DNA of 64,000 bases from a candidate division WOR-3 bacterium (GTDB lineage Bacteria; Hydrothermota; Tepidihabitantia; Tepidihabitantales; Tepidihabitantaceae), in the NCBI GenBank assembly GCA_026418295.1, contig JAOABP010000005.1, positions 100,864 through 164,863 on the forward strand, read 5' to 3'. Made by a program: the position numbers and the translations under genes. Below, in pieces: positions 15,414 through 44,319 of this stretch. Below the pieces are notes generated by a model. It saw nothing but the letters and a program-made list of their open reading frames with translations. It ran no database searches and was not told the DNA's origin. Each line of letters opens with the position of its first letter. Within the stretch, counting starts at the first letter, position 1.

Positions 15414-15426
15414 GGGAGGTTCCAAA

Positions 15427-20505: not shown

Positions 20506-22287
20506 TTATTCCGGGCGGAGTTGTTGTCGCTTTAATTGCTCACACCGCTGTGCGTCGCCAGCAGTACAAAAGTCAGTCTTTTGTGTCTTGCCTTCACGCT
20601 TCAGCTGTTCCCTGCAGCCGGCCAGAAATTCATCATTAAGCACTCTGCCTGTCAGTGAGCCGGTCTTATGCTGTTCTACCGGCATCAGTTGGCGAATCAG
20701 CTCAGCGGAGATATCCTGACGTTCACCGGTTACCAGCCAGTAAACTTTGGTTCCGGGTCTGCCGGCGATTACAAACCGGTTGTCGGTAATGTCTTCAATG
20801 ACATACACTTCATAGCTGCCGACGCCGGTAAGCTGGATGTGCGGGTTGCGGTTGAGGGCGGAAAAGTAATCCGGGAGTCGGACTTCGGCCTTGCCCGAGG
20901 AATCGAGAATTACACTCCCTTCATAGATGTTTCTCATCTCCGGTCCCCCGATTGAGTAATGATTGAGAATTTTACCACATGGGTCGAGGGGATGATCAAT
21001 TGTGATTGCACCACCAGTCTGAGACAATATGCCGCATCTCAATTGACCGGAGGCAGTTGCAGTTTGACCGTTGAAGGCGGCGGAGTTGGAAAATCCAGCG
21101 GGAACGACTGAGTGATAGCCGGCAGCAAAGCTGTGGTCACCGGCAGCGGTGTCATTTTCTCCCCCGGCAACTGCTGCACCCGGGCCGCTGGCAAGGTTAA
21201 GTTCGCCCCCAGCAATCGTGGCACCGCGTCCACTGGCAGTATTGCCACGTCCACCCGCTACGGTCGCTCCGCTGGCAGCCGCCAGATTCCCCGAACCTCC
21301 CCCTATGGCAGTACAGTTGTCGCTGGCTACGTTGTCAATACCACCGGCTACCGCGGCACAATAACCTCTGGCGATATTGTATTTACCACCGGCAACAGTT
21401 GCATTAGTGCCGGAGGCGGTATTTGCTCTGCCTCCAGCGACAGTAGCACGGCTGGAACTGGCAGTATTTCCTGAACCGCCTCCGACCACAGCATAGGTGC
21501 CGCTTGCGGTATTAGTGTCCCCGCCAGCAACAGTAGCATAGTCAGCTATGGCGTCGTTGCTGTACCCCCCGCCGACAAAAGCTCCATTTCCGACCGCCCT
21601 GTTGCCGAAGCCGGCAGCAACTCCGCAATAGGTGTAATCCCGGTCCGGGGCGCCGGTGGTGCAGGCAACCCCGAAGTTGACATGAGTGCAGCGCTCGTTG
21701 CCATGAAGCATATTATCCGCCCTGCCTCGTGTCAGCCCCAGAAAGTTAACCGTAGATAGTACTGAATCCGGTTCACCTCTTACCCATGTTTTTGGGATCT
21801 CCAGACTGGTGCTCAGTGCGTAATTTGCGGTGTCAGCCCGGTTGGCAGTAAAGGCATAGGCAGCGGAAACAATCCTTAACCTAGGTGTAAGTTCTGCGCA
21901 CGTGCCAACCTGCACGCTGAGGTAAAGATTTCCGTCATCAGGGACTTCATTGAGTGGAGTTACCAATCCCAACAGAGTGGAAAAAATTCCACCTTGGACT
22001 TCCAAGTTCCGGGTTTCAGACCAGAATGGATTTCCTCCGGTTTCCTGGGTATAAAGTCTAAAAGTCAGCTGATAGGTGCCATCCGGTACCGGATGGCCGA
22101 GTGAATCGGTTAATCTGCCTTGATAGGACAGCAGCTTCGGAATGACGATGGGCTCGGGGGCGGCAGTTATCGAACAGGCGTTAGACGCCCGGGAATTGTG
22201 AAAAGCAGGCAGAATCACCGCATTCTGGTCCGGCAGGACAACAGTGCTTAAAAGAATAACTGCCAGCAGTACAGTTCTGAGGTTCAC
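20506..22287 (-). CDS. Secreted beta-helical repeat protein (ATVAGG-x2-N-x-ASG repeats) with a phage-tail-fibre-like C-terminal domain
   Basis: Signal peptide. About 12 tandem 14-15-aa repeats of type (A/T)TVAGGxxNTASGxx. C-terminal roughly 170 aa lack repeats. Lower GC than its surroundings. 593 aa. Confidence 0.6.
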   Translation of the reverse strand: MNLRTVLLAVILLSTVVLPDQNAVILPAFHNSRASNACSITAAPEPIVIPKLLSYQGRLTDSLGHPVPDGTYQLTFRLYTQETGGNPFWSETRNLEVQGGIFSTLLGLVTPLNEVPDDGNLYLSVQVGTCAELTPRLRIVSAAYAFTANRADTANYALSTSLEIPKTWVRGEPDSVLSTVNFLGLTRGRADNMLHGNERCTHVNFGVACTTGAPDRDYTYCGVAAGFGNRAVGNGAFVGGGYSNDAIADYATVAGGDTNTASGTYAVVGGGSGNTASSSRATVAGGRANTASGTNATVAGGKYNIARGYCAAVAGGIDNVASDNCTAIGGGSGNLAAASGATVAGGRGNTASGRGATIAGGELNLASGPGAAVAGGENDTAAGDHSFAAGYHSVVPAGFSNSAAFNGQTATASGQLRCGILSQTGGAITIDHPLDPCGKILNHYSIGGPEMRNIYEGSVILDSSGKAEVRLPDYFSALNRNPHIQLTGVGSYEVYVIEDITDNRFVIAGRPGTKVYWLVTGERQDISAELIRQLMPVEQHKTGSLTGRVLNDEFLAGCREQLKREGKTQKTDFCTAGDAQRCEQLKRQQLRPE

Positions 22288-22656
22288 TTATGCCTCCAGT
22301 TTAAAATATGATCAAATTTTTCCCGGTTGAATGAATTTTATTTCGGACATCTTGATAATAAATAATACTGGCAGGTGATTTGTCTGTCAAAGTATTTCAT
22401 ATCCCTATATTTTTAGAGTCATAAATCGGACAGAATTTCACATCGGAAAACGGCTGGCATATAGCATTTTCTCCTAACTTCCGGAATGACAAGTGGTTGC
22501 CAATCTGTCTTCGCTCTGAGGCTGGATTTTGGGGGTAGGTCCCGGGGTCATCCCTTTTCCGGGGCGGGGTTTGAGTTTGCCGCCCGGTCCGGTTTCGAGT
22601 TGGGGTACGCACCATGGTATTAGTGGATTTACTCCGTTTCCGGATTATAATTGGGC

Positions 22657-24822
22657 ATGCGCCGGGTTGTATTCGGGCTTTTGTTTGCCGGCTGGGTGCT
22701 GGCTGAGCCGGTGCGTATCGGTCTGGCGCTTTCCGGTGGTGCTGCCCTGGGGCTTGCCCATGTCGGTGTCCTGAAGGTGCTGGAGCGTGAGGGGCTGGAA
22801 TTTGTCGGAATCTCGGGAAACAGCATGGGTTCGCTCGTGGGCGGTGTTTATGCTGCCGGTTACAGCGCCGCTCAGATTGAAAGTATTGCACTGAGCGTTG
22901 ACTGGAACCGGCTTTTCTCCTCGCAGCCCGCCTATGGTGCCCAGTATCTGCAGGAGAAGCAGCAGGCAGAAAGGTATATCCTGCGCCTGCGGCATAACCG
23001 GTTTCTGCCTTATCTGCCGGGCGGGCTGATTCCGCTGCAGAATGTTGAGCTTCTGCTTAACCGGCTCTTGGCTGAGGTCGAGTTTAATACCGGATACGAT
23101 TTTGACCGGCTGCCGGTGCCCTACCGGGCGGTGGCGGTTGACATCCGGGCAGGCAGGAAGGTGGTGTTGAGGTCGGGTCGGCTGGAGCAGGCGATCCGGG
23201 CAAGCATTGCCATTCCCGGGGTTTTTTCGCCTGAGGTGATCGAGGGCCGGGAGCTGGTGGATGGCGGGGTGCTGGATTATCTGCCTGTGACCGCACTGGA
23301 GGATTTTCAGCCCGATTTTGTGATTGCGGTTTTGACGATGCGGCACCAGGAGTCCCCAAACCAGAGTCTGCTGGATATCGCCTCCCGCAGTATTGATCTG
23401 ATGAGCATCGCCAATGTTGAGCGTGCAAAGGAGCAGGCGGATGTGGTCATTGAGCCTGATGTGTCAAGATTTCTTCACTCCGATTTTGCCCGCGCCCGGG
23501 AACTGATTGCTGCCGGGGAGTCGGCAGCGATGCGGGCACTGCCGGTGATCCGGGAGAGGCTCAGGGGCAGGGTGCCGGTGCGGAGCAGAAACCGGATTGA
23601 ACCCCGGTCTGTGCCGGTGGTGCGGCGGGTGGTCTTTGAAGGTCTGAAGCGGACCCGGCGCTCGCTGCTTCTGCCCTATCTGCGCACCCGGGAGGGTGCA
23701 AGGTTGAATTTCGGCCTGCTCCTCGGGGACGTGGAGCGGCTGTTTAATACCGGGCTGTTTGAGGATGTGAATTTCCGGCTGACAGAGGTGACCGCGGAGA
23801 GTGCGGATGTGATCTTTGAGGTTAATGAGCGGCCGTTCGGTTTCTATGCGTTCGGGGTGCGGTATGACAATTATGACAATGTGGTGGTCGGGGCTGAGGT
23901 TGGGGAGGAAAATATTTTGGGTTCGGGCGCAACCGTCCGGGCCGGCGGGGTCGTCGGTAACCCGAATGAGTTCCGACTGGGAATTACGGGCACACGGATT
24001 TTTCAGCTGCCGTTCGGATACCGGATTGACGGTTATATCAGTTCGCTGAACCGGAGTCTGTGGGAGCAGGGCAGGTTCGGTTCCAGTTACTTTGTCCGGG
24101 TGCGGGGGGCAGTGGTGGAGGCGGGTTACAGCACGGGGAGAAATGGTTTTTTCAACTTTGGCGCCCGGGTGGAGCGGATCGGTTATGAGGGTACAGCAGT
24201 GGAGACGCTGGCCGCTGGCTGGCTTGCCGGTCTGCGGGCAAATCTGGAGTTCAATACATTTGACCGGCTGGAGTTGTCCGGCAGAGGACTGGGATACCGG
24301 TTGAGCGGGTTTTATTCCAGCCAAAAGGTACTGAGCCGGTTTGAGTTTCTGAAGACGGAGTTTTCGGGCGAGCAGGTGGTGCCGCTGCTTGACCGCTGGG
24401 CACTGCGCTGGTGGACCGATATCGGGCTGGTGCTGGGCAGACTGCCGTTCAGCGAGCAGTTCCTTTCCGGGGGTGAACGGTTTACCGGTTTTGCACCCGA
24501 GGAGTTTGTGAGTGAACAGCGGGTGATCGCCGGTTCGGCACTGCGGTGGCGGGTGCTGAATCTGCTGAACCGGGATGATTATCCGGTATATCTTGAGGCG
24601 AACGTTAATGCCGGAACCTTTACCCGGCCTGATTCGCTGCTAGTGAGCGACCGGATTGGGGAGCAGTTACACTGGGGCGCGGGTTTTGGTTTGATGACGA
24701 ATACACCGGCAGGACCGCTGAAACTGATTATCGGGCTGGGCAATTTTTTCAAGCGGACGCCCCATCCGGGTGGCGTGCGGATTTACCTTTCTCTCGGTAG
24801 AGAGTTCCGATATCGGCGCTGA
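22657..24822 (+). CDS. Patatin-like phospholipase fused to POTRA plus Omp85-type beta-barrel (PlpD-like, type Vd secretion architecture)
   Basis: Patatin oxyanion-hole and nucleophile motifs (LALSGGAALG, GNSMG, DGG). The C-terminal 400 aa resemble the bacterial surface antigen (BamA/TpsB) barrel and end in an aromatic-rich segment. ATG at 22657 is preferred over the TTG at 22651. Confidence 0.8.
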   Translation: MRRVVFGLLFAGWVLAEPVRIGLALSGGAALGLAHVGVLKVLEREGLEFVGISGNSMGSLVGGVYAAGYSAAQIESIALSVDWNRLFSSQPAYGAQYLQEKQQAERYILRLRHNRFLPYLPGGLIPLQNVELLLNRLLAEVEFNTGYDFDRLPVPYRAVAVDIRAGRKVVLRSGRLEQAIRASIAIPGVFSPEVIEGRELVDGGVLDYLPVTALEDFQPDFVIAVLTMRHQESPNQSLLDIASRSIDLMSIANVERAKEQADVVIEPDVSRFLHSDFARARELIAAGESAAMRALPVIRERLRGRVPVRSRNRIEPRSVPVVRRVVFEGLKRTRRSLLLPYLRTREGARLNFGLLLGDVERLFNTGLFEDVNFRLTEVTAESADVIFEVNERPFGFYAFGVRYDNYDNVVVGAEVGEENILGSGATVRAGGVVGNPNEFRLGITGTRIFQLPFGYRIDGYISSLNRSLWEQGRFGSSYFVRVRGAVVEAGYSTGRNGFFNFGARVERIGYEGTAVETLAAGWLAGLRANLEFNTFDRLELSGRGLGYRLSGFYSSQKVLSRFEFLKTEFSGEQVVPLLDRWALRWWTDIGLVLGRLPFSEQFLSGGERFTGFAPEEFVSEQRVIAGSALRWRVLNLLNRDDYPVYLEANVNAGTFTRPDSLLVSDRIGEQLHWGAGFGLMTNTPAGPLKLIIGLGNFFKRTPHPGGVRIYLSLGREFRYRR

Positions 24823-27403: not shown

Positions 27404-27463
27404 AGCTGATTTTAGTTTCTCCTGAGAGAAATGTCAATCAGCCGCCCTGGGTGATATTCAGAT

Positions 27464-27491
27464 TTGACACCAATCGGGTTCAGGTTAAAAT
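27464..27491 (+). promoter_or_regulatory. Sigma70-like promoter TTGACA-16-TAAAAT ending 9 nt before the ATG of the first outer-membrane protein gene
   Basis: TTGACA at 27464-27469, TAAAAT at 27486-27491, ATG at 27501. Confidence 0.4.
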
Positions 27492-27500
27492 CGTGTAACC

Positions 27501-28319
27501 ATGCGCACGCTCTTGCCCCTGTTTATGTTGCTGGGAATGGCGGTAATGCCGGTTCATGCCCTTTTTGAGGAAAATGCATCAGGTGTCCGGGCAGAGGGGA
27601 TGGGCGGCAGTTTCTGCGCGGTGGCGGATGATCTGAGTGCGCTTGATTTCAATCCTGCCGGGCTTGCCTTTGTTCAGGAGAGACAGTTTCAGAGTTTTTA
27701 CAAACTGCTTTACGGCGGGGTGGGAGTCAATCTGCATACCTTCCATGCCGGTCTGGCACTGCCATTGAGCCGGCTCGGGTGTCTGGCAGGGCGGGTCCAG
27801 GAGACCGGTTTTGAGCTTCAGTCCCAGCGTTCGTTCAAGCTGGGACATGGCTTTTTACTGGCAGATGGGCTGGCATTCGGTTATGGAATCAACGGCTATA
27901 ATTTCGTTCAGCAGGAGCTGGGTTCCGGATATGCCTTTGGCCTGGATGTAAGCCTCTTTGCCCGGCTTGCCCGTTACTGGACCGTTGGGTTTTACGGTCA
28001 TAATATCAACCTGCCGAAAATCGGTTCTTCAGAACTGCCGTCTGTGCTTGTCCTGGGGCTGGGGTTTTCTCCCCGGCAGGGCATTCAATCCTCTCTGCAG
28101 GTGAGCAAGGAGCCCGGGATGCCTACCAGAATTGCTCTGGGGCAGGAGTTTGAGGTTGTGTCCGATTATCTTGTCCTGCGTGCGGGTGTCCAGAATGAAC
28201 CGGTCCGGTTCGCCCTCGGACTGGGTACCGGTTTACGGCGGGTCGGGATTGACTATGCACTGATCACCCATCCGGTTCTGCCTTTTACTCATAACTTCGG
28301 ACTGCGGGTGAAATTTTAG
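27501..28319 (+). CDS. Small outer-membrane beta-barrel protein, FadL/PorV/PorP-SprF-like (N-terminal NPAG hatch motif)
   Basis: Signal peptide. GMGGSFCAVADDLSALDFNPAGLA resembles the N-terminal motif of FadL-like and PorP/SprF-type OM barrels. Amphipathic beta-strand pattern with C-terminal aromatic residue (RVKF). Confidence 0.5.
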   Translation: MRTLLPLFMLLGMAVMPVHALFEENASGVRAEGMGGSFCAVADDLSALDFNPAGLAFVQERQFQSFYKLLYGGVGVNLHTFHAGLALPLSRLGCLAGRVQETGFELQSQRSFKLGHGFLLADGLAFGYGINGYNFVQQELGSGYAFGLDVSLFARLARYWTVGFYGHNINLPKIGSSELPSVLVLGLGFSPRQGIQSSLQVSKEPGMPTRIALGQEFEVVSDYLVLRAGVQNEPVRFALGLGTGLRRVGIDYALITHPVLPFTHNFGLRVKF

Positions 28320-28323: not shown

Positions 28324-30708
28324 ATGCTGCTGGTTCTTGTCTGGATATTTAACCTGTGGACAGCAGATAATCAGCTGGATATCAACCGGGCAAGCCGGGC
28401 AGAGATCGGTCAGCTGCCGGTTGATTCCCTGACTGCGGACCGGATCTATGAGTATCTCCAGCTTTACGGCCGGTTCAACAGTATCTATGATCTGCTGAAG
28501 GTTCCCGGAATTACCCCTGAGAAACTGGATGAGCTGAAGCCGGTGATTTACATCCGGCCCCGGAGCTGGGAGGAGCGGGCAACAGAGAATATTCAGCGGA
28601 TTCAGCGCCGGCTGGCAGCTGAGGACAGTCCGGGCAGGGCGGTAGTAGAGGAGTGGCAGGATCTGCTGCTGGACCCGCTCAACATTAACCGCGCAACGGT
28701 GGATGAACTGCTGCTGCTGGAGAATGTGTCGCTGGTTGATGCGGTGGCGGTCGTGAATTTCATCCGGCAGGGAGGGAGGATCACGAGCCGTCGGGATCTG
28801 GCGAGTCAGGTTCCGGGTCTTTCAGCATATGGGTATCGCGGGATGCGGAATTATGTGACCTTTCAGGACCGGGCTGATACTGCCCGGGTCAGGATCTGGA
28901 GCGGGAACTACCGGTTGAAATACGAAAGCGGGCAGGACTGGGAGGTGCTTACCAGCACGGAGGAGTTTACCGCAGCATTGAACAGCCTGGTTCAGGACAG
29001 CATCCGGTTCCGGGAGGCTGGGTTTACCGAATCGGAGCTGGCATTTTACCGGGATAGGTTGAGCCAGGAGCTGGATTTTAGAAAAAACATGGGTAATACG
29101 GGAATAATGCGTCACCGGTTACGGGCACGGATTGGTGAGCAGATCCGGGCTGGAGGGTTCGTGGAGCAGAATTTATACGAAAAGGCGGGTTTCAGCGGTG
29201 TCAGGGGTTGTGTGACTGTTGACAAAATCGGTCCGGTCCGACGGCTGCTCGTGGGTGATTACCGGCTGACGCTGGGGCAGGGACTTTTAATCGATAACAA
29301 TTTTGAGCTGATGGCAAGGACGCATAAGCGAACCGCCGGCCTTTTCGCTGATCTGACCGAGAATTCCGGGTTTGGGCTCCGCGGGGCGGCGGTGGATCTG
29401 AAATTAAATCGGTTCGGCTTATTGGGATTTTATTCACTGGCAAAGCGGGACGGGATTCTAAATCCGGACAGCACGGTAAACTGGTATATCCTTTCCACAC
29501 CACGCTACCCGACATTTAAAAATCTATTTAGTCAGACCGATGCCGGAGCCAGCTGGTCCGCTGACCTTTCCCAGCTGGGTTTTCTGCCACTCGGAACGCG
29601 CTTGGGAGTAAACGGTCTTTTTTCCCGTACCAGCCGGAGTCTGCAGCCGGCTGCCCGCTATGTTGAGCTTCCCGGTGATGCGGAGATTATTGATGATCCG
29701 AACTGGGCCCGGCTGGATACGGGCAGAACCCGGCTGTTTTATTCTGCCGATTTCCGGACGGTGATTAACAATTTTGCCCTGGAAGGGGAGGTTGCTCACC
29801 AGCATCGGGGTGGCAGTGCCTATCTGCTGAAGGGTTATCTGCAGCATGATCTGCTGAATCTGACCGTACTTTACCGGCATTATGATGTCAGTTATGTCAA
29901 TCCGTATAACCGCGGGTTCTGTGAGGAGCTGCGGTTTGAGGATACACCGCTGGAAAAGCCCTACCGGCTCATTGACCCGGCGTATGCTGCGCTCCAGAAT
30001 TTCCCGATGCCCAAAGCGGAGCAGGGGTTTTTTGCCGAGATGCGCTATCAGATCTCCCGACAGATTACTTTTACCCGTGCGTATCTTGATGTCTGGCGCA
30101 ACCTTGCCTATGGAGCGGACAATTTCCGGTTTCAGGCGGAAATGGAATACCGCCCGGTTTTCCCACTGCGGCTGCGCTTCCGGCAGAAGGTTCAGTTGAA
30201 GGAGCGGCCGAGGCTGGTGCTGGGCACCGGTTCATTGTCCATGGAGTCCTCACTGCGGGCACTGGTTTCGCTTTCCAACTGGGACTATCTGACTGGCGAA
30301 CTGCGGTACAGCAGAACCCGGCTGACGCCAACGATGAAATACGATGACCGGGCAAGTATTGAGGGCGATTTTCTACTTGTGCAGTGGGAGCACAACTTTT
30401 CGGACGATTTTCAGGGGGAGCTGGGAATTGCCGGCTGGCGCAGCGGCGGCATGTCGAACTGGATGTTTGAGGACAACGGGATTGATTTTGTTGACGGCGA
30501 CGGGTGCAAGTGGTATCTGGCATTGACTAACCGCCTGACCGATAACCTCCTTGTTTACCTCAAGTTCCGGCAGAAGTTAAGCATATTTCCCCATACCGGT
30601 TTGAGTGGAAACGGGGGCGTCCATTATCCGGAAGGCATGCCGGTTCGGGATTTTATGAGTCAGAGCCGGCGGTTTGATATCTGGCTGCAGATTGATTTTC
30701 TCTGGTGA
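28324..30708 (+). CDS. Outer-membrane beta-barrel protein with two N-terminal ComEA-like helix-hairpin-helix DNA-binding domains
   Basis: LDINRASRAEIGQLP…DLLKVPGITPEKLDELKP and LNINRATVDELLLLENVSLVDAVAVVNFIRQGG are ComEA-type HhH motifs. The remaining 600 aa show alternating beta-strand patterns and a C-terminal …IDFLW. 794 aa. Confidence 0.55.
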   Translation: MLLVLVWIFNLWTADNQLDINRASRAEIGQLPVDSLTADRIYEYLQLYGRFNSIYDLLKVPGITPEKLDELKPVIYIRPRSWEERATENIQRIQRRLAAEDSPGRAVVEEWQDLLLDPLNINRATVDELLLLENVSLVDAVAVVNFIRQGGRITSRRDLASQVPGLSAYGYRGMRNYVTFQDRADTARVRIWSGNYRLKYESGQDWEVLTSTEEFTAALNSLVQDSIRFREAGFTESELAFYRDRLSQELDFRKNMGNTGIMRHRLRARIGEQIRAGGFVEQNLYEKAGFSGVRGCVTVDKIGPVRRLLVGDYRLTLGQGLLIDNNFELMARTHKRTAGLFADLTENSGFGLRGAAVDLKLNRFGLLGFYSLAKRDGILNPDSTVNWYILSTPRYPTFKNLFSQTDAGASWSADLSQLGFLPLGTRLGVNGLFSRTSRSLQPAARYVELPGDAEIIDDPNWARLDTGRTRLFYSADFRTVINNFALEGEVAHQHRGGSAYLLKGYLQHDLLNLTVLYRHYDVSYVNPYNRGFCEELRFEDTPLEKPYRLIDPAYAALQNFPMPKAEQGFFAEMRYQISRQITFTRAYLDVWRNLAYGADNFRFQAEMEYRPVFPLRLRFRQKVQLKERPRLVLGTGSLSMESSLRALVSLSNWDYLTGELRYSRTRLTPTMKYDDRASIEGDFLLVQWEHNFSDDFQGELGIAGWRSGGMSNWMFEDNGIDFVDGDGCKWYLALTNRLTDNLLVYLKFRQKLSIFPHTGLSGNGGVHYPEGMPVRDFMSQSRRFDIWLQIDFLW

Positions 30709-30717: not shown

Positions 30718-31818
30718 GTGAAATTGAGATTCTGGAAAGTACTGTTCAGCCTACTTGCCGGTGGAACCGGTGCATTTGCCAGTGTGCCGGTGCGAAACTG
30801 GTGGGGCGAGGAGCTGAGTGCTGAACCCTCAGCCATATTCCTTTATCCTTCAAAACTGACGGGTTACCGCGGAGCGGCGGTCTTTGCCGGACTGGGCAGC
30901 AGCATGCTGAGTGAGGAGCGGACCCGGCTGGTGTACGACCAGTTTGAAAATACGATCGGCGAGGCGGCGTATGCGGATAACATCAGCTGGTCGCTGCATT
31001 TCGGACCTTTTGCCGGTGTTTATCGCTGGAGGGGGTTCGGTTTCGGCGCCGGGCTGACACAGGTCCGGGATTTCAGCTATCAGTACCTGAAGGAATATCT
31101 GGACGATTTTTATGTGAAAATCGGTGAGGACCGGGTTGAGCAGTCAGGCGGCATCTGGACCGGAGCGCTTGCGGTCGGATACAGTCCGGTTTCGTGGCTT
31201 GAGATCGGTGCCGGAGGAAGATATCTTTATGGTCAGCGCAGACTGGAACTGGTTCACATCCGGGTGCCGGAGACATCAGCGGTCAGCCTGAAAAGCAGCA
31301 TCAGGGGTGCGGGCTGGCAGGCGGGTGCGGGGTTTGTTTCCCGCGCTGGCTGGAGGGTGGATGCGTGTTACCAGTCTGCGATCCGTTCTGGCAGCGGGGA
31401 TTCAGACACAATCAGGAAGCTGCCCTGGTGTGCCGGTATCGCTGCGGAATTGAATGTCCCGGGTGTACTGCCAGCGAGAATGCTTGCCGAGGCAAAGCTG
31501 TCCGGCTGGTCTGAAGTGGATTCCGGTTTCCGGAATGTGCTGAGCGTGCGGGCGGGGATTGAACACCGGCTGCTCAATCGGGTGCGGATGAGTTACGGGT
31601 TCGGTGTTGACCCGCTCTTTTCCAATTCCGCAGTGCACCGGCTTCTGGGGCGGTTCGGGCTTGGGTTTGATATCAGCCGGCTGCGGCTGGATTTTAATCT
31701 TCAGGCGAGCCGGGAAGAACTTGATGCCGGAGATTTTGCCCTGCCGGTGGAACCGGCAGACATCCGGGTTTATCAGGACCGAATCGGTCTGACGCTTAAT
31801 TTTCGTTATGATATTTAG
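30718..31818 (+). CDS. Hypothetical outer-membrane beta-barrel protein
   Basis: Signal peptide (LLAGGTGAFA), Gly/aromatic-rich alternating strands, C-terminus LTLNFRYDI. Confidence 0.45.
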   Translation: MKLRFWKVLFSLLAGGTGAFASVPVRNWWGEELSAEPSAIFLYPSKLTGYRGAAVFAGLGSSMLSEERTRLVYDQFENTIGEAAYADNISWSLHFGPFAGVYRWRGFGFGAGLTQVRDFSYQYLKEYLDDFYVKIGEDRVEQSGGIWTGALAVGYSPVSWLEIGAGGRYLYGQRRLELVHIRVPETSAVSLKSSIRGAGWQAGAGFVSRAGWRVDACYQSAIRSGSGDSDTIRKLPWCAGIAAELNVPGVLPARMLAEAKLSGWSEVDSGFRNVLSVRAGIEHRLLNRVRMSYGFGVDPLFSNSAVHRLLGRFGLGFDISRLRLDFNLQASREELDAGDFALPVEPADIRVYQDRIGLTLNFRYDI

Positions 31819-31824: not shown

Positions 31825-33363
31825 ATGGAAAGAAGACAGGTGAAGTTCTGCCGTTTCTGGCTGTTTGTCAGTCTGCTGCTGGTCACCAGTACAGCTGATG
31901 CCGGAGTTCAGCATCTGATTATTGTCCATACCAATGATATTCACGGTGCACTCCTCCCGGCTGAGGCTTACTGGCTGGACAACAACTTTCCGCCCCCGCT
32001 GGCTAACGCCGCAGGAGCGCTGACTGTAATTCGGGAGTTGCGGGATTCAGCGGTTCGGCACGGATACGGATTTCTGCTGCTGGATGGTGGTGATATCTTC
32101 AAGGGAACACCGGTAGGGGATTTCACCCGCGGCCAGGCGGTCATCGACTTTTTCCGGCAGGCAGGGTATGATGCGGTTGCGCCCGGCAATCACGATTTTG
32201 ATTTCGGCTGGCAGGTACTGAAGGAGATTGCCGACTCATCACGGATCCCCTGGATTGCCACCAATGTCCGGGTACCGGATGGCGACAGTCCGCCCGGTTA
32301 TCTGAAGCGGAGTCATATCTTTGAGCGTGGCGGTATCAAGATCGGCATCCTGGGGGTTCTGACCAAGTATCTCTACGGTATGGTGAACGAGTCGTTGACG
32401 GGCGGGCTTGATATTCTGCCTTATTATGATGTTGTCCGGGAGGAGGTAGCGAGGCTGCGGGAAGCCGGTGCTGAGATTGTGATTGCGCTGAATCATATCG
32501 GTTACACCCACGATCAGCGGTTTGCCGATTCAGTATCCGGTGTGGATGTGATTATCGGTGCCCACAGCCATACCGGTGTTGAGCCGCCTTATGAGAGTCC
32601 GAAAAACCATGTCATCATCCAGCAGGCGTATTCAAAACTGAGTTCAATCGGGGTGCTGGATATCAGCTTTGACACCGGAAGCCGGCGGATTTTAGGTTAT
32701 CAGGGCCGGTTGATTGATCTGCTCGCCGATGAGGTGCCCATGGATTCTATTTATGCCCGGCGGCTGGATTCAATCCGGCAGGTTGCGGAAAAGGGGTTTG
32801 ACGAGGTTCTGGGGTATGCCCGGCGCGAGCTGACCCGGGGCGGATTTACCGAAACCCCGATGGGCAATCTGATTACCGATGCCATGCGGGAGCGTTTCGG
32901 GACGGAAATTGCGGTGCACAATTCCGCCGGTATCCGGGCAAACATCCCTGCCGGTCCGGTGACCTATCGCCACATTTATCAGGTGGATGTTTTCGGCAAT
33001 ACCGTGGTTACCGGCAGGTACACGGGCAGACAGATCAAGGAGATTCTGGAGGTGTCGGTAAACGGACATCACGCCATCTTTCAGGTTTCAGGGGTGAGAA
33101 TGAAATACACGCTGAACCGGCCGATCGGGAAAAGGGTGCTGTGGGTTGAAGTCAATGGTGCCCCGCTTGACTCGAACCGGATTTATACTCTGGCAACCAA
33201 TTCCTACCTGGCGTCCGGAACCGGTGAATACCACATCTTTGCTGAGGGGGTTGATCTGGAGGACAGCTTTCTGCCGTTGCGCGATGTGCTGGCAGACTAC
33301 ATCCGGCGTCATTCTCCGGTGGATGCCAGAATCGAGGGCAGAATTGTGCTGATTGACCGATGA
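31825..33363 (+). CDS. Bifunctional metallophosphatase/5'-nucleotidase (UshA family), secreted
   Basis: Signal peptide. Calcineurin-like phosphoesterase motifs (HTNDIHG, GGDIFKG, GNHDFD) and a 5'-nucleotidase C-terminal domain. 512 aa. Confidence 0.85.
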   Translation: MERRQVKFCRFWLFVSLLLVTSTADAGVQHLIIVHTNDIHGALLPAEAYWLDNNFPPPLANAAGALTVIRELRDSAVRHGYGFLLLDGGDIFKGTPVGDFTRGQAVIDFFRQAGYDAVAPGNHDFDFGWQVLKEIADSSRIPWIATNVRVPDGDSPPGYLKRSHIFERGGIKIGILGVLTKYLYGMVNESLTGGLDILPYYDVVREEVARLREAGAEIVIALNHIGYTHDQRFADSVSGVDVIIGAHSHTGVEPPYESPKNHVIIQQAYSKLSSIGVLDISFDTGSRRILGYQGRLIDLLADEVPMDSIYARRLDSIRQVAEKGFDEVLGYARRELTRGGFTETPMGNLITDAMRERFGTEIAVHNSAGIRANIPAGPVTYRHIYQVDVFGNTVVTGRYTGRQIKEILEVSVNGHHAIFQVSGVRMKYTLNRPIGKRVLWVEVNGAPLDSNRIYTLATNSYLASGTGEYHIFAEGVDLEDSFLPLRDVLADYIRRHSPVDARIEGRIVLIDR

Positions 33364-34982
33364 AAATCTGGCAGTTGAAACCGGCGGACGAAAGGCAGAT
33401 TCAGAGTGTGGCCGAGGGTTGTGGTATTTCCCGGGAGTTTGCCCGGATGCTGGTCGTGCGGGGGGTTACGACCAGAGATGATGTGCGTATCTGGCTGAAC
33501 CCGCGTCTCTCCGATCTCCATCCCAGCGAGCTCCTGCCGGATTTCGATGCCGCAGTGCACCGGATTCAGCAGGCGATCGCTCACCGGGAGCGGATTCTGG
33601 TCTGGGGGCATGATGACCTGGACGGGATCACCGCGGTTCTGGTCATGGTGAAGGTGCTGAGCAGTCTGCAGGCGAATGTTGATTATCATATTCCGGTAAA
33701 GGGCAGGGATAAGCATGGACTTGATGCCCGGCTGGTGGCAGGTCTGCCGGCAGAAAGGAAACCGGGGCTGATCATCACGGTTGACTGCGGAATTTCCAAT
33801 CACAGCGATATTGCCGAGCTGAGACAGCAGGGGGTGGAGGTGATCGTCACAGATCATCATGAGGTGGTCATGCCTTTGCCGCCAGCGCTGGCGGTAGTGG
33901 ATCCGAAGCGCAGTGACAGCGAATATCCCTACGGACAGCTGACCGGTGCGGGCGTGGCACTGAAGCTGATGATGGGACTGGTGGCACACCGGCTCGGATT
34001 GAGCGTCACTCAGTTTGTTTCCGCTCAGCCGGAGCTGCTGGAGCTGGTGACACTGGGGACGGTGGCTGACCGGGCGCCCCTGACCGGTGAAAACCGCATT
34101 CTGGTGAAGCTGGGGTTTGACCGGCTGATGAAGACCAGGCTGCCGGCGCTGCGCGCGGTGCTGGACAATCTGAGAGAGGGGAATGAACCGTTGACGGTAT
34201 CAACATTTCTTACCGAGCTGCTGCCGCTGTTTGCCGCGGCGAACGGCAGTGAAGGGGTGAGGAAATTTCTTTCCCGGGATCTGGCGGAAGTGCAGGCGTG
34301 GGTGAAAGAATTGACAGTCCGCAGTCAGGAGTGGCGGCAGGAGGCGGAAAGGACATTTCAGCTGGCACAGGCGCATGTCCGGCTCGGTGACGGCATTCTG
34401 TTCGTTCAGCATCCGGAGCTCTCGCTCCGGGCGCTGGGTTTCAGTGCGGCACGGTTGAAGGACCGGTATCAGGTGCCGGCAATTGTCATCGGCCGGCGGG
34501 ATGATGTCTGGGTCGGGGAGTGCCGGGGTATTGAGGGCGTGGATCTGATGGAGCTTTTGCGTGCCCACCGCAACTTCTTTATTGATTTCGGCGGGCACAA
34601 GAAGGCAGCCGGATTTACCATCAGCCCGGACCGGGTGGATGAGTTCATTGTTTCGGCAGAGCGATTCGCCCACGAAAACTTTGCCGGCAGAATCATGCCG
34701 GAGAATCAGCTGACGGCAGATGCTGAGCTGCCACTTTCCCGGTTCAATACTGAGATCTGCCGGCTGGCACCGTTTGGGGAAGGTAACCCGGAACCGGTTC
34801 TGATTTCCGAGCCGGTCCGCCTGATTCCCCAAGAGAAGGGATTTGTGCCTGAGACCCGCCCGGATTTGATCCTTTGCTGCCGTCGGGGCGGCATGGAGAT
34901 TCAGCCGGAGATTTCTTATTCGGTACTGTATTCCGTTGATGACCTGTGCCGGCTCTGGCTCGTTGATCTTCAGCCCGTATAA
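33360..34982 (+). CDS. recJ: Single-stranded-DNA-specific exonuclease RecJ (DHH/DHHA1 family)
   Basis: DHH motifs (HDDLDGITA, ITVDCG, DHH) and DHHA1 (GGHKKAAG). 540 aa. Start overlaps the upstream stop (ATGA). Confidence 0.75.
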   Translation: MKIWQLKPADERQIQSVAEGCGISREFARMLVVRGVTTRDDVRIWLNPRLSDLHPSELLPDFDAAVHRIQQAIAHRERILVWGHDDLDGITAVLVMVKVLSSLQANVDYHIPVKGRDKHGLDARLVAGLPAERKPGLIITVDCGISNHSDIAELRQQGVEVIVTDHHEVVMPLPPALAVVDPKRSDSEYPYGQLTGAGVALKLMMGLVAHRLGLSVTQFVSAQPELLELVTLGTVADRAPLTGENRILVKLGFDRLMKTRLPALRAVLDNLREGNEPLTVSTFLTELLPLFAAANGSEGVRKFLSRDLAEVQAWVKELTVRSQEWRQEAERTFQLAQAHVRLGDGILFVQHPELSLRALGFSAARLKDRYQVPAIVIGRRDDVWVGECRGIEGVDLMELLRAHRNFFIDFGGHKKAAGFTISPDRVDEFIVSAERFAHENFAGRIMPENQLTADAELPLSRFNTEICRLAPFGEGNPEPVLISEPVRLIPQEKGFVPETRPDLILCCRRGGMEIQPEISYSVLYSVDDLCRLWLVDLQPV

Positions 34983-37052: not shown

Positions 37053-37906
37053 AATATCCCTACTATCCAGGCTGTACCCTTTATTCCAAGGCAAGGAATC
37101 TTGACCGGTGCGGCCGGCTCGCAGCGGCGCGGGCCGGTTTTGAGCTTGAGGAGCTGCCCTCGTGGAACTGCTGTGGCGCAATTTACAACACCAATACTGA
37201 TGATCTGGCAGCTCAGGTCGGACCGGTTCGCGTGCTGGCCAAGGCAAGTCAGCAGGGCAGACGGCTGGTGACCCTGTGCGCCGCCTGTTACAATGTGCTG
37301 AAGCGGGCAAATGAGCGACTCCATGCCACCGGTTTTGAGCAGGACCGGCAGCGGATTCTGGAGTTTGTTGATGAGCCGTTTGAGCAGGATGTTGAGGTTG
37401 TGCATTACCTTGAGGTGCTCAAGGAGCTGGGCTGGGATGCGATCCGGCAGCGGGTGGTGCGTTCGCTGAACGGTCTGAAGGTGGCATCCTACTACGGCTG
37501 TCTGATGGTGAGACCCAGGGAGGTGCTGAAGTTTGACGATCCGGAGAACCCGGTGGTGATGGATGAGCTGATGGCGACATTGGGGGGAGAGCCGGTGCGG
37601 TTTGATTTCAAGGCGGAGTGCTGTGGCGGGTATCTGGTGATAAACCGCCGGGCGGTTGCCGATGCCTGTTCCCTGCGGGTGGTGGAGAATGCCCGGACCT
37701 GGGGAGCGGAGGCAATTGTGACCACCTGTCCGCTCTGCCAGTACAATCTGGAGAGCGCCCAGTTGCGCCGGGGAACGGTATTGACGCCGGTTTTTTATTT
37801 CACTCAGATTCTCGGTCTGGCGCTGGGACTGGAGCCGGCAGAGCTGGGCTTTGAGGATAACAAACTGGACCCGGTGCCGTTTCTGAAGGAGAAGGGGCTC
37901 TTGTGA
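37049..37906 (+). CDS. hdrB: Heterodisulfide reductase subunit B-like (two CCG domains)
   Basis: Two Cys-rich CCG motifs (NCCGAIYN, CCGGYL with flanking Cys). ATGA overlap with hdrC. Confidence 0.85.
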   Translation: MKYPYYPGCTLYSKARNLDRCGRLAAARAGFELEELPSWNCCGAIYNTNTDDLAAQVGPVRVLAKASQQGRRLVTLCAACYNVLKRANERLHATGFEQDRQRILEFVDEPFEQDVEVVHYLEVLKELGWDAIRQRVVRSLNGLKVASYYGCLMVRPREVLKFDDPENPVVMDELMATLGGEPVRFDFKAECCGGYLVINRRAVADACSLRVVENARTWGAEAIVTTCPLCQYNLESAQLRRGTVLTPVFYFTQILGLALGLEPAELGFEDNKLDPVPFLKEKGLL

Positions 37907-39843
37907 AGCGCCGGATCGGAGTCTTTGTCTGTCACTGCGGGATCAACATTGCGGGTGTGGTGAAGGTGCCGGAGCTGGTTGAGCGGGCAAAAAATATTCC
38001 CGGGGTGGTGACGGCGCTGGATTATGTCTACTGCTGTTCGGATCCGGGACAGCGGTTGATCCGGGAGACAATTCAGAAGGAGCGGCTGGAGGGGATTGTG
38101 GTTGCCTGCTGTTCGCCCAATCTCCATGAGGCAACCTTCCGCAAGGCGGCAGCCGAAGCCGGACTCAATCCGTATCTCTGTGAAATTGCCAATATCCGGG
38201 AGCAGTGCTCCTGGGTGACTTCAGACCGGGATGCTGCCACTGAGAAGGCGGAGGGTATTGTCAGGACGATGGTGGCAAAGGTGAGCCATGATCAGCCGCT
38301 TGTCCGGCTTGGTGTGCCGATTGTCAAGCGGGCGCTGGTGGTTGGAGCAGGAATTGCCGGCATCCAGGCGGCGCTGGACATTGCCAACGCCGGATATGAG
38401 GTGGTGCTGGTGGAGAAGGAGCCGTCAATCGGCGGACACATGGCTCAGCTTTCCGAGACCTTTCCGACGCTCGACTGCTCCCAGTGCATTCTGACCCCGA
38501 AGACGGTGGAGGCGGGCCGTCATCCGAAAATCAGGCTTCTGACCTATTCCGAGGTTGCCGAGGTCTCCGGGTTTGTGGGCAATTTCCGGGTGAAGATCCG
38601 GCAGAAGCCGCGCTATGTTGACCTTGACGCCTGCACCGGCTGTGGCATCTGTCTGGAGAAGTGTCCGGTGCGGGTGGAGTCGGTGTTTGACCGGAATCTG
38701 ACCCGGCGCCGGGCGATCTATCGGCTCTTTCCGCAGGCGGTGCCGAACAAGGTGGTGATTGATGCCCAACACTGCCGGCAGTTGCAGGGCAAAAAATGCG
38801 GGGTGTGTGCCAAGGTCTGTCCGGCGCAGGCAATCCGGTATGATGACCAGGAGCGGATTGTTGAGGAGGAGGTAGGGGCGATCGTGCTTGCTACCGGCTA
38901 TGAGCTTTTTGACAGCCGCCGGCTCGGTGCCTACGGGCTCGGGGTGGTGCCGGATGTAATTGACAGTCTCGCCTTTGAGCGCATCCTTTCCGCCTCCGGA
39001 CCGTTTGCCGGTGAGGTGCGCCGGCCTTCGGATGGCAGGGTGCCCAAGCGGGTGGTCTTTGTCCAGTGTGCCGGTTCCCGGGATTCAAATCAGGGTGTGC
39101 CCTACTGTTCGAAGATCTGCTGCATGTATACCGCCAAGCATGCCCTGCTTTACCGGCACCGGGTGCATGATGGTGAGGCGGTTGTCTGCTATATTGATGT
39201 CCGGACCCCGGGAAAGGGGTTTGAGGAGTTTTACCGCCGGGCAACGGATGAAGGTGTCCAGTATCTCCGGGGTAAGGTGTCCAAGATCTTCCGGCGCGGA
39301 GACCGGGTGGTGGTCTGGGCTGCGGATACGCTGGCGGGCAAGAAGCTGGAGATTGAGGCGGATATGGTGGTGCTGGCGAGTGCGGTGGTGCCCAATCCTG
39401 ACGGTGTAGCGCTGGCACGCAGGCTGAAGATACCGGTTGACGGCTGGGGGTTTCTGTCTGAAGCCCACCCGAAACTCCGGCCGGTGGAGACCCTGACCGC
39501 CGGTTTCTTCCTCTGCGGTTGCGGTCAGGGACCGAAGGACATCCCCGAGACGGTGGCACAGGCGTCAGGTGCTGCTGCCAAGGTGCTGGCGATGTTCGGC
39601 CAGAGTGAGCTGTATCATGAGCCGGTGACCGCAGTGGTGGATGAGGAGATTTGCGTCGGGTGCGGCAACTGTGAGCGCACCTGTGCCTATGAGGCGGTCC
39701 GGGTTGATCCGCACCGCGGCAAGGCGGTGGTGCAGGCGGTGATGTGTGAAGGGTGTGGTGCCTGTTCGGTTGCCTGCCCGGCAGGAGCGATCAACCTGAA
39801 GAACTTCACCAAGCAGTCGCTGACCGAAATGGTGGATGTATGA
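37903..39843 (+). CDS. hdrA: Heterodisulfide reductase subunit A-like (FAD, multiple Fe-S)
   Basis: N-terminal VFVCHCGINIAGVV…YCCSDP domain, FAD-binding ALVVGAGIAGIQAALD, ferredoxin-type Cys clusters, and CSKICCMY. 646 aa. Confidence 0.9.
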   Translation: MKRRIGVFVCHCGINIAGVVKVPELVERAKNIPGVVTALDYVYCCSDPGQRLIRETIQKERLEGIVVACCSPNLHEATFRKAAAEAGLNPYLCEIANIREQCSWVTSDRDAATEKAEGIVRTMVAKVSHDQPLVRLGVPIVKRALVVGAGIAGIQAALDIANAGYEVVLVEKEPSIGGHMAQLSETFPTLDCSQCILTPKTVEAGRHPKIRLLTYSEVAEVSGFVGNFRVKIRQKPRYVDLDACTGCGICLEKCPVRVESVFDRNLTRRRAIYRLFPQAVPNKVVIDAQHCRQLQGKKCGVCAKVCPAQAIRYDDQERIVEEEVGAIVLATGYELFDSRRLGAYGLGVVPDVIDSLAFERILSASGPFAGEVRRPSDGRVPKRVVFVQCAGSRDSNQGVPYCSKICCMYTAKHALLYRHRVHDGEAVVCYIDVRTPGKGFEEFYRRATDEGVQYLRGKVSKIFRRGDRVVVWAADTLAGKKLEIEADMVVLASAVVPNPDGVALARRLKIPVDGWGFLSEAHPKLRPVETLTAGFFLCGCGQGPKDIPETVAQASGAAAKVLAMFGQSELYHEPVTAVVDEEICVGCGNCERTCAYEAVRVDPHRGKAVVQAVMCEGCGACSVACPAGAINLKNFTKQSLTEMVDV

Positions 39844-44285: not shown

Positions 44286-44319
44286 AAGGCAAATCTTGGT
44301 GCGCGGCAGGAGGTGACAG

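What the first reader, a model, noticed from the sequence alone, without database searches (positions are those of the whole stretch)
28324..30708. ComEA-like tandem HhH domains fused to a roughly 600-aa outer-membrane beta-barrel
ComEA-type HhH modules are normally small periplasmic or membrane-anchored DNA receptors. Here two of them (residues about 20-75 and about 115-160) precede a long region with OM-barrel features, including an alternating strand pattern and a terminal aromatic (…IDFLW). This would be an outer-membrane-embedded DNA-binding protein. I do not recognise this architecture from characterised systems.
Basis: partly seen in the sequence, partly recalled or inferred. Interest (0 to 1): 0.6.

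Follow-up and report, generated by a model that had tools for sequence, protein, structure and literature searches.

The report
ComEA-like domains fused to outer-membrane barrel
This gene encodes two ComEA-type DNA-binding modules fused to a large predicted outer-membrane pore; it belongs to a widespread, unstudied family that sits next to nucleotide-degrading enzymes and may be how these bacteria take up environmental DNA.

Summary
ORF 28324-30708 (+, 794 aa) has two HHH_3 domains (residues 16-75 and 119-178). Their closest relatives by sequence and predicted fold are ComEA and EEPD1. About 600 further residues are modelled as a roughly 24-strand outer-membrane barrel with a C-terminal aromatic beta-signal, amphipathic strands and a net-positive predicted lumen.

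The barrel matches no Pfam, NCBIfam or PDB sequence. The fusion is not a one-off. All 10 distant relatives found with the barrel alone carry HHH_3. The family occurs in 205 reference genomes (WOR-3 and related candidate phyla) and has a full-length-homologous branch of at least 2,768 Bacteroidota proteins.

A short PorV-like barrel gene lies directly upstream in 69/71 loci and in 5/5 Bacteroidota loci. Outside Bacteroidota the cassette adds a BamG/FadL-like barrel (52/69) and a 5'-nucleotidase (42/55). It often also has a DUF5689-like OB-fold surface protein (36 loci), and some loci add a NucT-like nuclease.

Best reading (confidence about 0.5): an outer-membrane conduit with tethered periplasmic DNA-binding domains, part of a system that captures and degrades environmental DNA. 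DNA binding and transport are inferred, not shown. I found no paper on this family. Novelty: new variant of a known kind.

The parts
27464..27491 (+). Sigma-70-like promoter (TTGACA-16-TAAAAT, 11 of 12 matches) just upstream of the cassette. A divergent twin on the minus strand faces mnmG.
   Evidence: This is a consensus match only. The next comparable site on the + strand is at 36621.
27501..28319 (+). 272-aa short PorV/FadL-family outer-membrane barrel. It is the conserved partner gene and ends 4 nt before the HhH-barrel gene.
   Evidence: NCBIfam PorV/PorQ family E 8e-10, 38.7 bits, below the cut-off of 90. The family profile hits PorV 6h3i_F at E 1.4e-8. It lies directly upstream in 69/71 loci and in 5/5 Bacteroidota loci.
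28324..30708 (+). The finding: a 794-aa protein with a leader, two HhH domains and a roughly 24-strand barrel.
28324..28368 (+). Short hydrophobic leader (MLLVLVWIFNLWTAD), a presumed signal peptide.
   Evidence: Read from the sequence. It has no charged n-region. More distant homologues have longer, canonical signal peptides. No signal-peptide predictor was available.
28369..28548 (+). HhH domain 1 (residues 16-75), ComEA-like.
   Evidence: Pfam HHH_3. Aligns to ComEA 8dss. N-terminal model pLDDT above 90. Closest PDB fold is ComEA 8dss: rmsd 1.4 A, 66 columns, 35% identity.
28675..28857 (+). HhH domain 2 (residues 118-178). This domain is an insertion specific to the WOR-3-type branch.
   Evidence: HHH_3 E 4.2e-5 when scanned alone. 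The tandem pair aligns to the EEPD1 N-terminus, E 3e-8. It is absent from the Bacteroidota branch in hhalign.
28897..30705 (+). Predicted 24-strand outer-membrane beta-barrel (residues 192-794). Family motifs are GDY-x4-GQGL (residues 311-321) and NPYxRxF (residues 526-532).
   Evidence: Conserved columns. No Pfam, NCBIfam or PDB sequence match.
28927..29103 (+). Acidic helical insert between strands 1 and 2 (residues 202-260, 6 K/R against 11 D/E). By strand parity it is an extracellular loop or a lumen insert.
   Evidence: DSSP of the model; charge count. It is largely absent in the Bacteroidota branch.
30676..30705 (+). C-terminal beta-signal (...FDIWLQIDFLW).
30718..31818 (+). 366-aa BamG/FadL-like barrel with a signal peptide.
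   Evidence: The family profile hits BamG 9n2d_B at E 2.7e-11, 9hjm_F at 1.1e-10, and TbuX/FadL weakly. NCBIfam BamG matches 18/24 members, all far below the cut-off. It lies downstream in 52/69 loci.
31825..33363 (+). 512-aa secreted UshA-type metallophosphatase/5'-nucleotidase.
   Evidence: Pfam Metallophos plus 5_nucleotid_C at E 4e-40; NCBIfam UshA-like. It lies downstream in 42/55 loci, and in 25/25 where the HhH-barrel is at least 40% identical.
33360..34982 (+). RecJ-like DHH/DHHA1 exonuclease. It overlaps the 5'-nucleotidase gene by 4 nt. Membership of the system is uncertain.
   Evidence: Co-located in only 15/47 loci.

Best explanation
The gene encodes an outer-membrane protein. A large barrel of about 24 strands with a positively charged lumen carries two ComEA-type helix-hairpin-helix domains on its periplasmic N-terminus.

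It most likely works as the outer-membrane component of a system that acquires environmental DNA. The proposed steps are as follows. DNA or DNA fragments pass through or dock at the barrel. The tethered HhH domains bind the incoming duplex at the periplasmic mouth and bias its inward movement, as free ComEA does in pilus-dependent uptake. A periplasmic 5'-nucleotidase then converts the products to nucleosides and phosphate; in related loci a NucT-like nuclease also takes part. The two flanking FadL/PorV-type small barrels probably dock on the large barrel, as PorV does on SprA and BamG does on BamA. In most related lineages the upstream one probably holds a surface OB-fold (DUF5689-like) DNA-binding protein by its T9SS-type C-terminal domain.

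Shown in silico: the domain architecture, the barrel prediction, family-wide conservation of the fusion, and the gene neighbourhood. Inferred: periplasmic orientation, DNA binding, passage of DNA through the barrel, and physical association of the three barrels.
For: Architecture.

The HhH domains are closest to DNA-binding relatives. The family profile against PDB gives EEPD1 1.2e-20 and ComEA 8e-12 and 7.5e-11, but PsbU only 0.18-1. The modelled domain superposes on ComEA 8dss at 1.4 A and on PsbU at about 7.6 A.

The fusion is obligate: 10/10 distant relatives found with the barrel alone have HHH_3, and hhalign between the WOR-3 and Bacteroidota branches gives probability 100, E 1.4e-46, over 587 columns.

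The predicted lumen face is net +16 (37 K/R against 21 D/E), and net +8 to +21 in all 52 diverse members, while the domain overall is neutral.

The genes are tightly packed, with gaps of 4, 9 and 6 nt and then a 4-nt overlap, behind one strong promoter-like site.

Neighbourhood across several candidate phyla: small barrel 69/71, BamG-like barrel 52/69, 5'-nucleotidase 42/55. An OB-pair protein with Pfam DUF5689, OB-fold or lamin-tail hits and a T9SS-type sorting domain lies directly upstream of the small barrel in 36 loci. Some loci add a NucT-like PLD nuclease, a PHP metallohydrolase with a sorting domain, and a UgpB-like binding protein.

DUF5689 proteins are the proposed surface dsDNA-binding subunit of the Bacteroides ddb DNA-utilisation locus, and a DUF5689 protein is essential for Riemerella transformation (PMC12478041; PMC8459023).

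Precedents for FadL-type barrels acting as adaptors on big barrels: PorV homology and BamG.
Against: - No experiment exists for any member of the family.
- The first hairpin of each HhH domain lacks the canonical Gly-x-Gly (LPVDS and ENVSL instead of LPGIG), and both domains are charge-neutral (9/9 and 7/6 K/R against D/E), unlike the typically basic ComEA.
- HHH_3-like folds also occur in proteins that do not bind DNA (PsbU, GspK; weak hits).
- The window itself has no DUF5689/OB-pair protein, nuclease or competence gene.
- In close relatives the sorting-domain protein upstream of the small barrel is a Kelch propeller, not a DNA binder.
- In 5 Bacteroidota loci only the two-gene core is kept, among unrelated housekeeping genes.
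- The lumen charge comes from sequence parity, not from model coordinates. Pore openness could not be measured.
- No energy source (TonB box, pilus, ATPase) is evident.
Confidence: 0.5

Rival explanations
1. A platform for anchoring or exporting surface proteins, accessory to T9SS-type sorting. The PorV-like small barrel binds the C-terminal sorting domain of the protein encoded upstream and docks it on the large barrel. The HhH domains are only a periplasmic structural or regulatory module, and DNA is not the substrate of the barrel.
For: The small barrel is homologous to PorV. A protein with a FlgD_ig or Por_Secre_tail sorting domain lies directly upstream of it in 36 loci, and a second 'sorting-domain protein plus small barrel' pair occurs in L021, L027 and L074. 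The cargo varies: Kelch propeller in L011 and L019, PHP hydrolase, OB-pair protein. The window carries Por_Secre_tail proteins.
Against: It does not explain why a ComEA-type HhH domain is kept in every member from WOR-3 to Bacteroidota. It does not explain the steady association with a 5'-nucleotidase, nor why most cargo proteins carry nucleic-acid-binding folds. Adjacency to sorting-domain proteins is not consistent in the 5 Bacteroidota loci. It is compatible with the main model as a sub-function.
Confidence: 0.2
2. An envelope-biogenesis or housekeeping outer-membrane protein, for example associated with BAM or LPS transport, whose HhH-like domains bind something other than DNA.
For: The downstream neighbour is BamG-like. 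In Bacteroidota the pair sits among housekeeping genes, including OstA/LptD_N-like and LpxD genes. The family is very widespread (at least 2,768 Bacteroidota proteins). The HhH first hairpins are degenerate.
Against: The BamG-like neighbour scores far below the BamG cut-off (20.7 against 250 bits), so it is a paralogue and not BamG itself. The HhH profile is far closer to ComEA and EEPD1 than to PsbU. The nucleotidase, nuclease and OB-fold neighbours outside Bacteroidota are unexplained. The family was not reported among BAM subunits in the two 2025 structures: a term search of PMC12611786 for BamG, PorV and FadL did not surface it, and the second paper was not opened.
Confidence: 0.1
3. A selective outer-membrane channel for nucleotides or short oligonucleotides, or another polyanion, that feeds the periplasmic 5'-nucleotidase. 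The HhH domains merely retain substrate or tether nucleases, and long DNA is not translocated.
For: The lumen is net-positive, as in the polyanion exporter AlgE, which is among the fold hits. The 5'-nucleotidase is conserved. UgpB-like organophosphate-type binding proteins occur in extended cassettes. No motor is evident.
Against: A 24-strand barrel is far larger than known nucleoside or nucleotide channels need to be (my own knowledge). HhH domains recognise duplex backbone rather than mononucleotides (established property of the fold). The surface OB-pair proteins suggest capture of polymeric DNA.
Confidence: 0.15

Closest known systems
ComEA (periplasmic or membrane-anchored DNA receptor of natural transformation; PDB 8dss, 8dfk, 2duy)
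   Same: Same HHH_3 fold, and the closest sequence and structure neighbour of the N-terminal domains. The predicted periplasmic location at the point of DNA entry is also shared.
   Different: ComEA is small (about 65-200 aa) and is soluble or anchored in the inner membrane. Here two copies are covalently fused to a 600-aa outer-membrane barrel. The first hairpins have lost Gly-x-Gly. The protein scores 38.9 bits against the TIGR01259 cut-off of 152.
DdbC/DdbD DNA-utilisation loci of Bacteroidales and the related Riemerella anatipestifer transformation genes RA0C_RS04915/04920 (PMC12478041, PMC8459023)
   Same: An outer-membrane barrel plus a surface DUF5689/OB-fold dsDNA-binding protein plus periplasmic or secreted nucleic-acid hydrolases in one locus. 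DUF5689-like proteins occur in 36 related cassettes here.
   Different: The barrel there is a TonB-dependent transporter with a lipoprotein partner. Here it is an unrelated barrel with no plug or TonB-box match and with fused HhH domains, and the partner carries a T9SS-type sorting domain next to a PorV-like barrel. The window itself lacks the DUF5689 gene.
SprA-PorV (T9SS translocon) and BamA-BamG (Bacteroidota BAM)
   Same: A large barrel accompanied by a FadL-family small barrel that acts as an adaptor for surface proteins. The neighbours here are remote homologues of PorV and BamG.
   Different: The large barrel here is neither SprA (36 strands, about 2,400 aa) nor Omp85. The small barrels are shorter (272 and 366 aa) and score below the curated family cut-offs.
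EEPD1 (human; tandem HhH plus endonuclease/exonuclease/phosphatase domain; PDB 9yi2)
   Same: It is the best PDB sequence match, and it aligns across both HhH domains and the linker (query residues 10-180, E 3e-8; profile E 1.2e-20).
   Different: In EEPD1 the C-terminal partner is a soluble nuclease-fold domain in a eukaryotic protein, not a membrane barrel.
Chaperone-usher pore FimD/PapC (24-strand barrel)
   Same: The best fold match and a similar strand count.
   Different: TM-score is only 0.25-0.43 and identity about 10%. There is no Usher or plug Pfam match and no chaperone or pilin genes nearby.

Membership tests
ComEA / HHH_3 | HHH_3 domain above the Pfam gathering score | tested here: met
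   56.3 bits against 27, two stretches.
ComEA / HHH_3 | Full-length match to the ComEA model TIGR01259 (cut-off 152 bits), or to the repeat model TIGR00426 (cut-off 53) | tested here: not met
   38.9 and 34.7 bits, HhH part only.
ComEA / HHH_3 | Canonical Gly-hydrophobic-Gly hairpins in both HhH motifs of a domain | tested here: inconclusive
   The second hairpins are kept as PGIT and PGLS. The first hairpins are LPVDS and ENVSL, with no Gly (sequence; alignment).
ComEA / HHH_3 | Binds dsDNA without sequence specificity | not testable with these tools
   Needs EMSA or similar.
Outer-membrane beta-barrel protein (BAM substrate) | C-terminal beta-signal ending in an aromatic residue | tested here: met
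   ...QIDFLW. Aromatic terminus in 48/49, 77/102 and 106/120 relatives.
Outer-membrane beta-barrel protein (BAM substrate) | Even number of amphipathic antiparallel strands closing a barrel, with short periplasmic turns and long outer loops | tested here: met
   24 strands in the AF2 model. Turns on the C-terminal (periplasmic) parity are 2-5 residues, with one of 11; the other side has loops of up to 59. Amphipathicity exceeds 1000/1000 shuffles. All top fold hits are outer-membrane barrels.
Outer-membrane beta-barrel protein (BAM substrate) | Sec signal peptide | tested here: inconclusive
   A 15-residue hydrophobic leader without a basic n-region. More distant homologues have canonical leaders. 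No predictor was available.
TonB-dependent transporter (as DdbC / RA0C_RS04915) | Plug domain, TonB box, TonB_dep_Rec barrel | tested here: not met
   No Pfam or NCBIfam hit at E up to 10 on the C-terminal 604 aa. The fold match to such receptors has TM about 0.3.
Chaperone-usher pore | Usher Pfam domains with a plug, and adjacent chaperone and pilin genes | tested here: not met
   No Pfam hit. The neighbours are unrelated.
PorV/PorQ family (neighbour 27501-28319) | NCBIfam NF033709 at or above 90 bits | tested here: not met
   38.7 bits, E 8e-10, but full-length coverage. The profile against PorV 6h3i_F gives E 1.4e-8. It is a remote homologue, not a curated member.
BamG (neighbour 30718-31818) | NCBIfam NF053685 at or above 250 bits | tested here: not met
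   20.7 bits. The profile against BamG 9n2d_B gives E 2.7e-11. It is a paralogue within the FadL superfamily.
ddb-type DNA-utilisation locus | DUF5689 surface protein next to the transporter | tested here: not met
   Absent from the whole window. Present in 36 related loci.
Riemerella RA0C_RS02645 (HhH protein essential for transformation) | Orthology to this family | tested here: inconclusive
   The sequence was not obtainable. Its listed 'homologues' in E. coli and Citrobacter with about 0.8 query cover suggest a ComEA of about 300 aa with three repeats, not a barrel fusion. This is an inference.

The most novel reading that the evidence does not exclude
The HhH-barrel, together with its PorV-like partner, is a previously unrecognised outer-membrane DNA translocon of the FCB superphylum and allied candidate phyla. 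It would be independent of pili, secretins and TonB, and powered only by a covalently tethered ComEA-type ratchet. It would serve DNA scavenging and possibly natural transformation in lineages where the route of DNA across the outer membrane is unknown.
Probability: 0.3. Interest if true: 0.85.

Novelty: new variant of a known kind. Interest (0 to 1): 0.68.

Why it matters
How DNA crosses the outer membrane without a type IV pilus and secretin is an open question for Bacteroidota and their relatives. The P. gingivalis competence paper says so explicitly, and a TonB-dependent DdbCD-type system is the only current candidate.

This family offers a second, testable candidate: a ComEA module physically fused to a pore, with a fixed PorV-like partner. 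It is present in thousands of genomes, including cultured Bacteroidota such as Sanyastnella, Halocola and Lentimicrobium.

It would also extend the emerging pattern of FadL-type small barrels acting as adaptors on large barrels (SprA-PorV, BamA-BamG) to a third machine. And it would give a function to a large barrel family that domain databases do not cover. If the DNA link fails, the conserved two-barrel module is still an uncharacterised envelope complex worth defining.

Tried and rejected
- Alignments A2 and A3 were too diverse for the genome scan. A1 was used instead, which biases the 80 loci towards WOR-3-like relatives.
- I tried to link the family to Riemerella RA0C_RS02645. No sequence or accession match was obtained, and the coverage pattern of its listed homologues argues it is an ordinary multi-HhH ComEA, so I dropped it as evidence.
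- P. gingivalis ComEA PGN_0421 has its ComEA domain at residues 94-165, which looks like a small canonical ComEA and not this family. Its length is not stated in the paper.
- ORF cluster 'c3' turned out to be a single-linkage artefact of shared sorting domains and Ig repeats. I replaced it with a purpose-built HMM of the OB-pair module.
- A search for that module, nucleases or competence genes elsewhere in the window was negative.
- I considered usher, TonB-dependent receptor, LptD-like and autotransporter readings. They are rejected for lack of any family domain and for low TM-scores.
- RecJ and the methyltransferase downstream are probably co-transcribed bystanders: RecJ is co-located in only 15/47 loci.
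Full report
**1. What is at the coordinates**

ORF 28324-30708 (+) encodes 794 aa. ATG 28324 is the first possible start after an in-frame TGA, and it lies 4 nt after the stop of the upstream gene. The closest public relative is a candidate division WOR-3 genome bin: the HhH-barrel is 93% identical, and its flanking genes are 86-94% identical and in the same order.

**2. N-terminal HhH domains**

- Pfam HHH_3 matches at E 3.4e-15 (56.3 bits, cut-off 27) with two passing stretches: residues 16-75 and, scanned alone, 119-178 (E 4.2e-5).
- NCBIfam comEA models hit only this part and fall far below their full-length cut-offs.
- Against PDB sequences, the tandem pair with its linker aligns to the N-terminus of EEPD1 (E 3e-8), and domain 1 aligns to ComEA 8dss.
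- With a 52-member family profile the values are EEPD1 1.2e-20 and ComEA 8e-12 and 7.5e-11, while the non-DNA-binding HhH protein PsbU reaches only 0.18-1.
- A separate AF2 model of residues 1-190 (pLDDT 82, above 90 within both domains) is closest to ComEA 8dss (rmsd 1.4 A, 66 columns, 35% identity) and to 2duy. PsbU superposes at about 7.6 A.

So 'ComEA-like' is justified. There are caveats. In each domain the first hairpin has lost Gly-x-Gly (LPVDS, ENVSL), while the second keeps PGIT and PGLS. Both domains are charge-neutral.

**3. C-terminal region**

- No Pfam, NCBIfam or PDB sequence matches it, even at E 10.
- The full-length AF2 model (32-sequence alignment; pLDDT 78.4, pTM 0.74) has about 24 long strands between residues 192 and 793.
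- Counting back from the C-terminus, the turns on the C-terminal side are 2-5 residues (one of 11), and the loops on the other side reach 59 residues. This is the classic outer-membrane protein pattern, and it puts the N-terminal HhH domains in the periplasm. That orientation is an inference from topology rules.
- All top Foldseek PDB hits are outer-membrane barrels (FimD usher E 3e-9, MtrB, SlpA, FadL, AlgE, TonB-dependent receptors), but TM-scores are 0.2-0.43. It is therefore a generic large barrel and not a member of a solved family.
- Strand amphipathicity is 2.37 against 1.39 +/- 0.21 for shuffles, with 0 of 1000 reaching it. An aromatic C-terminus occurs in 48/49, 77/102 and 106/120 relatives.
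- By sequence parity, the polar (lumen) faces carry 37 K/R against 21 D/E. The net charge is +8 to +21 in every one of 52 diverse members, although the domain overall is neutral and the loops are acidic.

**4. The family**

- 52 full-length homologues share 38-95% identity.
- A search of 1.84 billion representatives with the barrel alone found 212 proteins, most of them 650-890 aa with the barrel starting after residue 200. All 10 tested carry N-terminal HHH_3.
- They come from Edwardsbacteria, Gemmatimonadota, Dependentiae, Bacteroidales and Chitinophagales.
- A genome scan found relatives in 205 species genomes. The 80 kept include WOR-3, TA06, Latescibacterota, Cloacimonadota, Fermentibacteria/Aegiribacteria and Stahlbacteria.
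- A profile of the roughly 700-aa Bacteroidota branch retrieves at least 2,768 proteins at E below 1e-10, labelled only 'helix-hairpin-helix domain-containing' or 'ComEA family'. These include cultured Sanyastnella, Halocola and Lentimicrobium.
- hhalign of the two branches gives probability 100, E 1.4e-46, over 587 columns spanning HhH1 and the whole barrel. The WOR-3 branch has an insertion at about residues 88-247, comprising the second HhH domain and a helical segment.

**5. Neighbourhood**

In the window six genes are packed with gaps of 4, 9 and 6 nt, a 4-nt overlap and a final 5-nt gap. They sit behind a strong promoter-like site at 27464-27491.

- The upstream 272-aa protein is a remote PorV/FadL-family barrel (NCBIfam E 8e-10; profile against PorV 6h3i_F E 1.4e-8).
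- The downstream 366-aa protein is a BamG/FadL-like barrel (profile against BamG 9n2d_B E 2.7e-11).
- Next come a secreted UshA-type 5'-nucleotidase, RecJ and a methyltransferase.

Across loci with enough flank, co-occurrence is: small barrel 69/71, BamG-like barrel 52/69, 5'-nucleotidase 42/55 (25/25 where the HhH-barrel is at least 40% identical), and RecJ 15/47.

In 5 of 5 Bacteroidota loci, a homologue of the small barrel lies directly upstream, often overlapping the HhH-barrel gene. Homology is supported by hhalign at 99.7-99.8% and by an HMM at E 1e-44 to 1e-47. The other cassette genes are absent there. The conserved core is therefore the two-barrel pair.

**6. Extended cassettes**

Unbiased ORF clustering and a custom HMM show a further component. 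In 36 loci the gene directly upstream of the small barrel encodes a secreted protein with one to three OB-pair modules and a T9SS-type C-terminal sorting domain. Among 37 upstream proteins scanned with Pfam, DUF5689 hits 11, an OB-fold 10, the lamin-tail domain 9 and FlgD_ig 18.

Some loci add:
- a NucT-like PLD nuclease;
- a PHP metallohydrolase with a sorting domain, followed by a second small barrel;
- a UgpB-like binding protein;
- a MalK-like ATPase.

DUF5689 is the proposed surface dsDNA-binding subunit (DdbD) of the Bacteroides DNA-utilisation locus, and the DUF5689 protein RA0C_RS04920 is essential for Riemerella transformation.

The window itself lacks the OB-pair gene. Its lineage has mnmG there instead. 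The Kelch proteins with sorting domains at 12480-18747 resemble the proteins found upstream of the small barrel in L011 and L019.

**7. Interpretation**

Architecture and conservation are solid. Function rests on three lines of evidence: homology of the HhH domains, guilt by association with enzymes that act on nucleic acids and phosphoesters and with surface OB-fold proteins, and a conserved electropositive lumen.

The best-supported model is an outer-membrane DNA conduit or receptor with a tethered periplasmic ComEA-type ratchet, feeding periplasmic hydrolases. The FadL-type small barrels would act as lateral adaptors, by analogy with PorV on SprA and BamG on BamA.

The rivals are:
- a platform for anchoring proteins that carry a sorting domain;
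- an envelope-biogenesis factor;
- a channel for nucleotides or oligonucleotides.

**8. Literature**

Searches found no study of this fusion. The Riemerella HhH protein RA0C_RS02645 could not be tied to the family and is probably a plain multi-HhH ComEA (inference). The essential ComEA of P. gingivalis appears to be a small canonical one, and that paper states that passage of DNA across the outer membrane is unexplained.

**9. Verdict**

The protein belongs to a large family that is annotated but uncharacterised. Its barrel is new to the domain databases, and it has a fixed PorV-like partner. Novelty: new variant of a known kind. Interest: 0.68.

Noticed in passing
window 22651-24822 (+): A 723-aa fusion of patatin-like phospholipase, POTRA and an Omp85 barrel. 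From my own knowledge, this is the architecture of PlpD-type (type Vd) secreted lipases. It lies next to the cassette only in close relatives.
   Followed up: partly
window 3005-22604: About 19.6 kb lies between blocks that are adjacent in the 70%-identical relative L001. It holds UvrB, DUF362-ferredoxin, acyl-CoA dehydrogenase, adenylosuccinate lyase, an HtrA-like protease, two giant Kelch/SBBP proteins, a C25-like peptidase and a 593-aa beta-roll protein. This is an insertion in this lineage or a deletion in L001.
   Followed up: partly
window 12480-15413 and 15397-18747 (+): Two tandem proteins of 977 and 1116 aa with Kelch/SBBP propellers and Por_Secre_tail sorting domains. The second is 38% identical to the protein directly upstream of the small barrel in L011 and L019. 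This suggests the cassette's sorting-domain partner was displaced in this lineage.
   Followed up: partly
window 62248-63495 (-): A UgpB-like solute-binding protein. It is 41% identical to the binding protein that sits just upstream of the OB-pair gene in Edwardsbacteria, TA06 and Fermentibacteria cassettes.
   Followed up: partly
L021, L027, L074 (about 13.2-15.4 kb in locus coordinates): A second module downstream of the 5'-nucleotidase: a CehA/McbA (PHP) metallohydrolase with a T9SS sorting domain, followed by a second PorV-like small barrel. This repeats the 'sorting-domain protein then small barrel' pattern.
   Followed up: partly
L031, L032, L041, L071, L076 (between the BamG-like barrel and a short UshA-like gene): One or two PLD-family proteins of about 190 aa that resemble nuclease NucT (E 5e-13). 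In these loci the 5'-nucleotidase is reduced to its metallophosphatase half, about 300 aa.
   Followed up: partly
window 27409-27491: Back-to-back promoter-like sites with 11 of 12 matches (both TTGACA ... TAAAAT) in the 97-nt gap between mnmG (-) and the small-barrel gene (+). The + site ends only 9 nt before the ATG.
   Followed up: no
window 37903-49570: A run of very large flavin and iron-sulfur oxidoreductase genes (646, 1510 and 1007 aa with many Fer4, Pyr_redox and FAD domains), apparently a heterodisulfide-reductase-like or electron-bifurcating complex.
   Followed up: no
window 5173-6651 (-): A 492-aa ORF with no Pfam match at E up to 1e-4.
   Followed up: no
whole window: GC skew is positive in almost every 2-kb bin and the cumulative skew rises steadily, consistent with one replication arm. 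Most genes are on the + strand.
   Followed up: no
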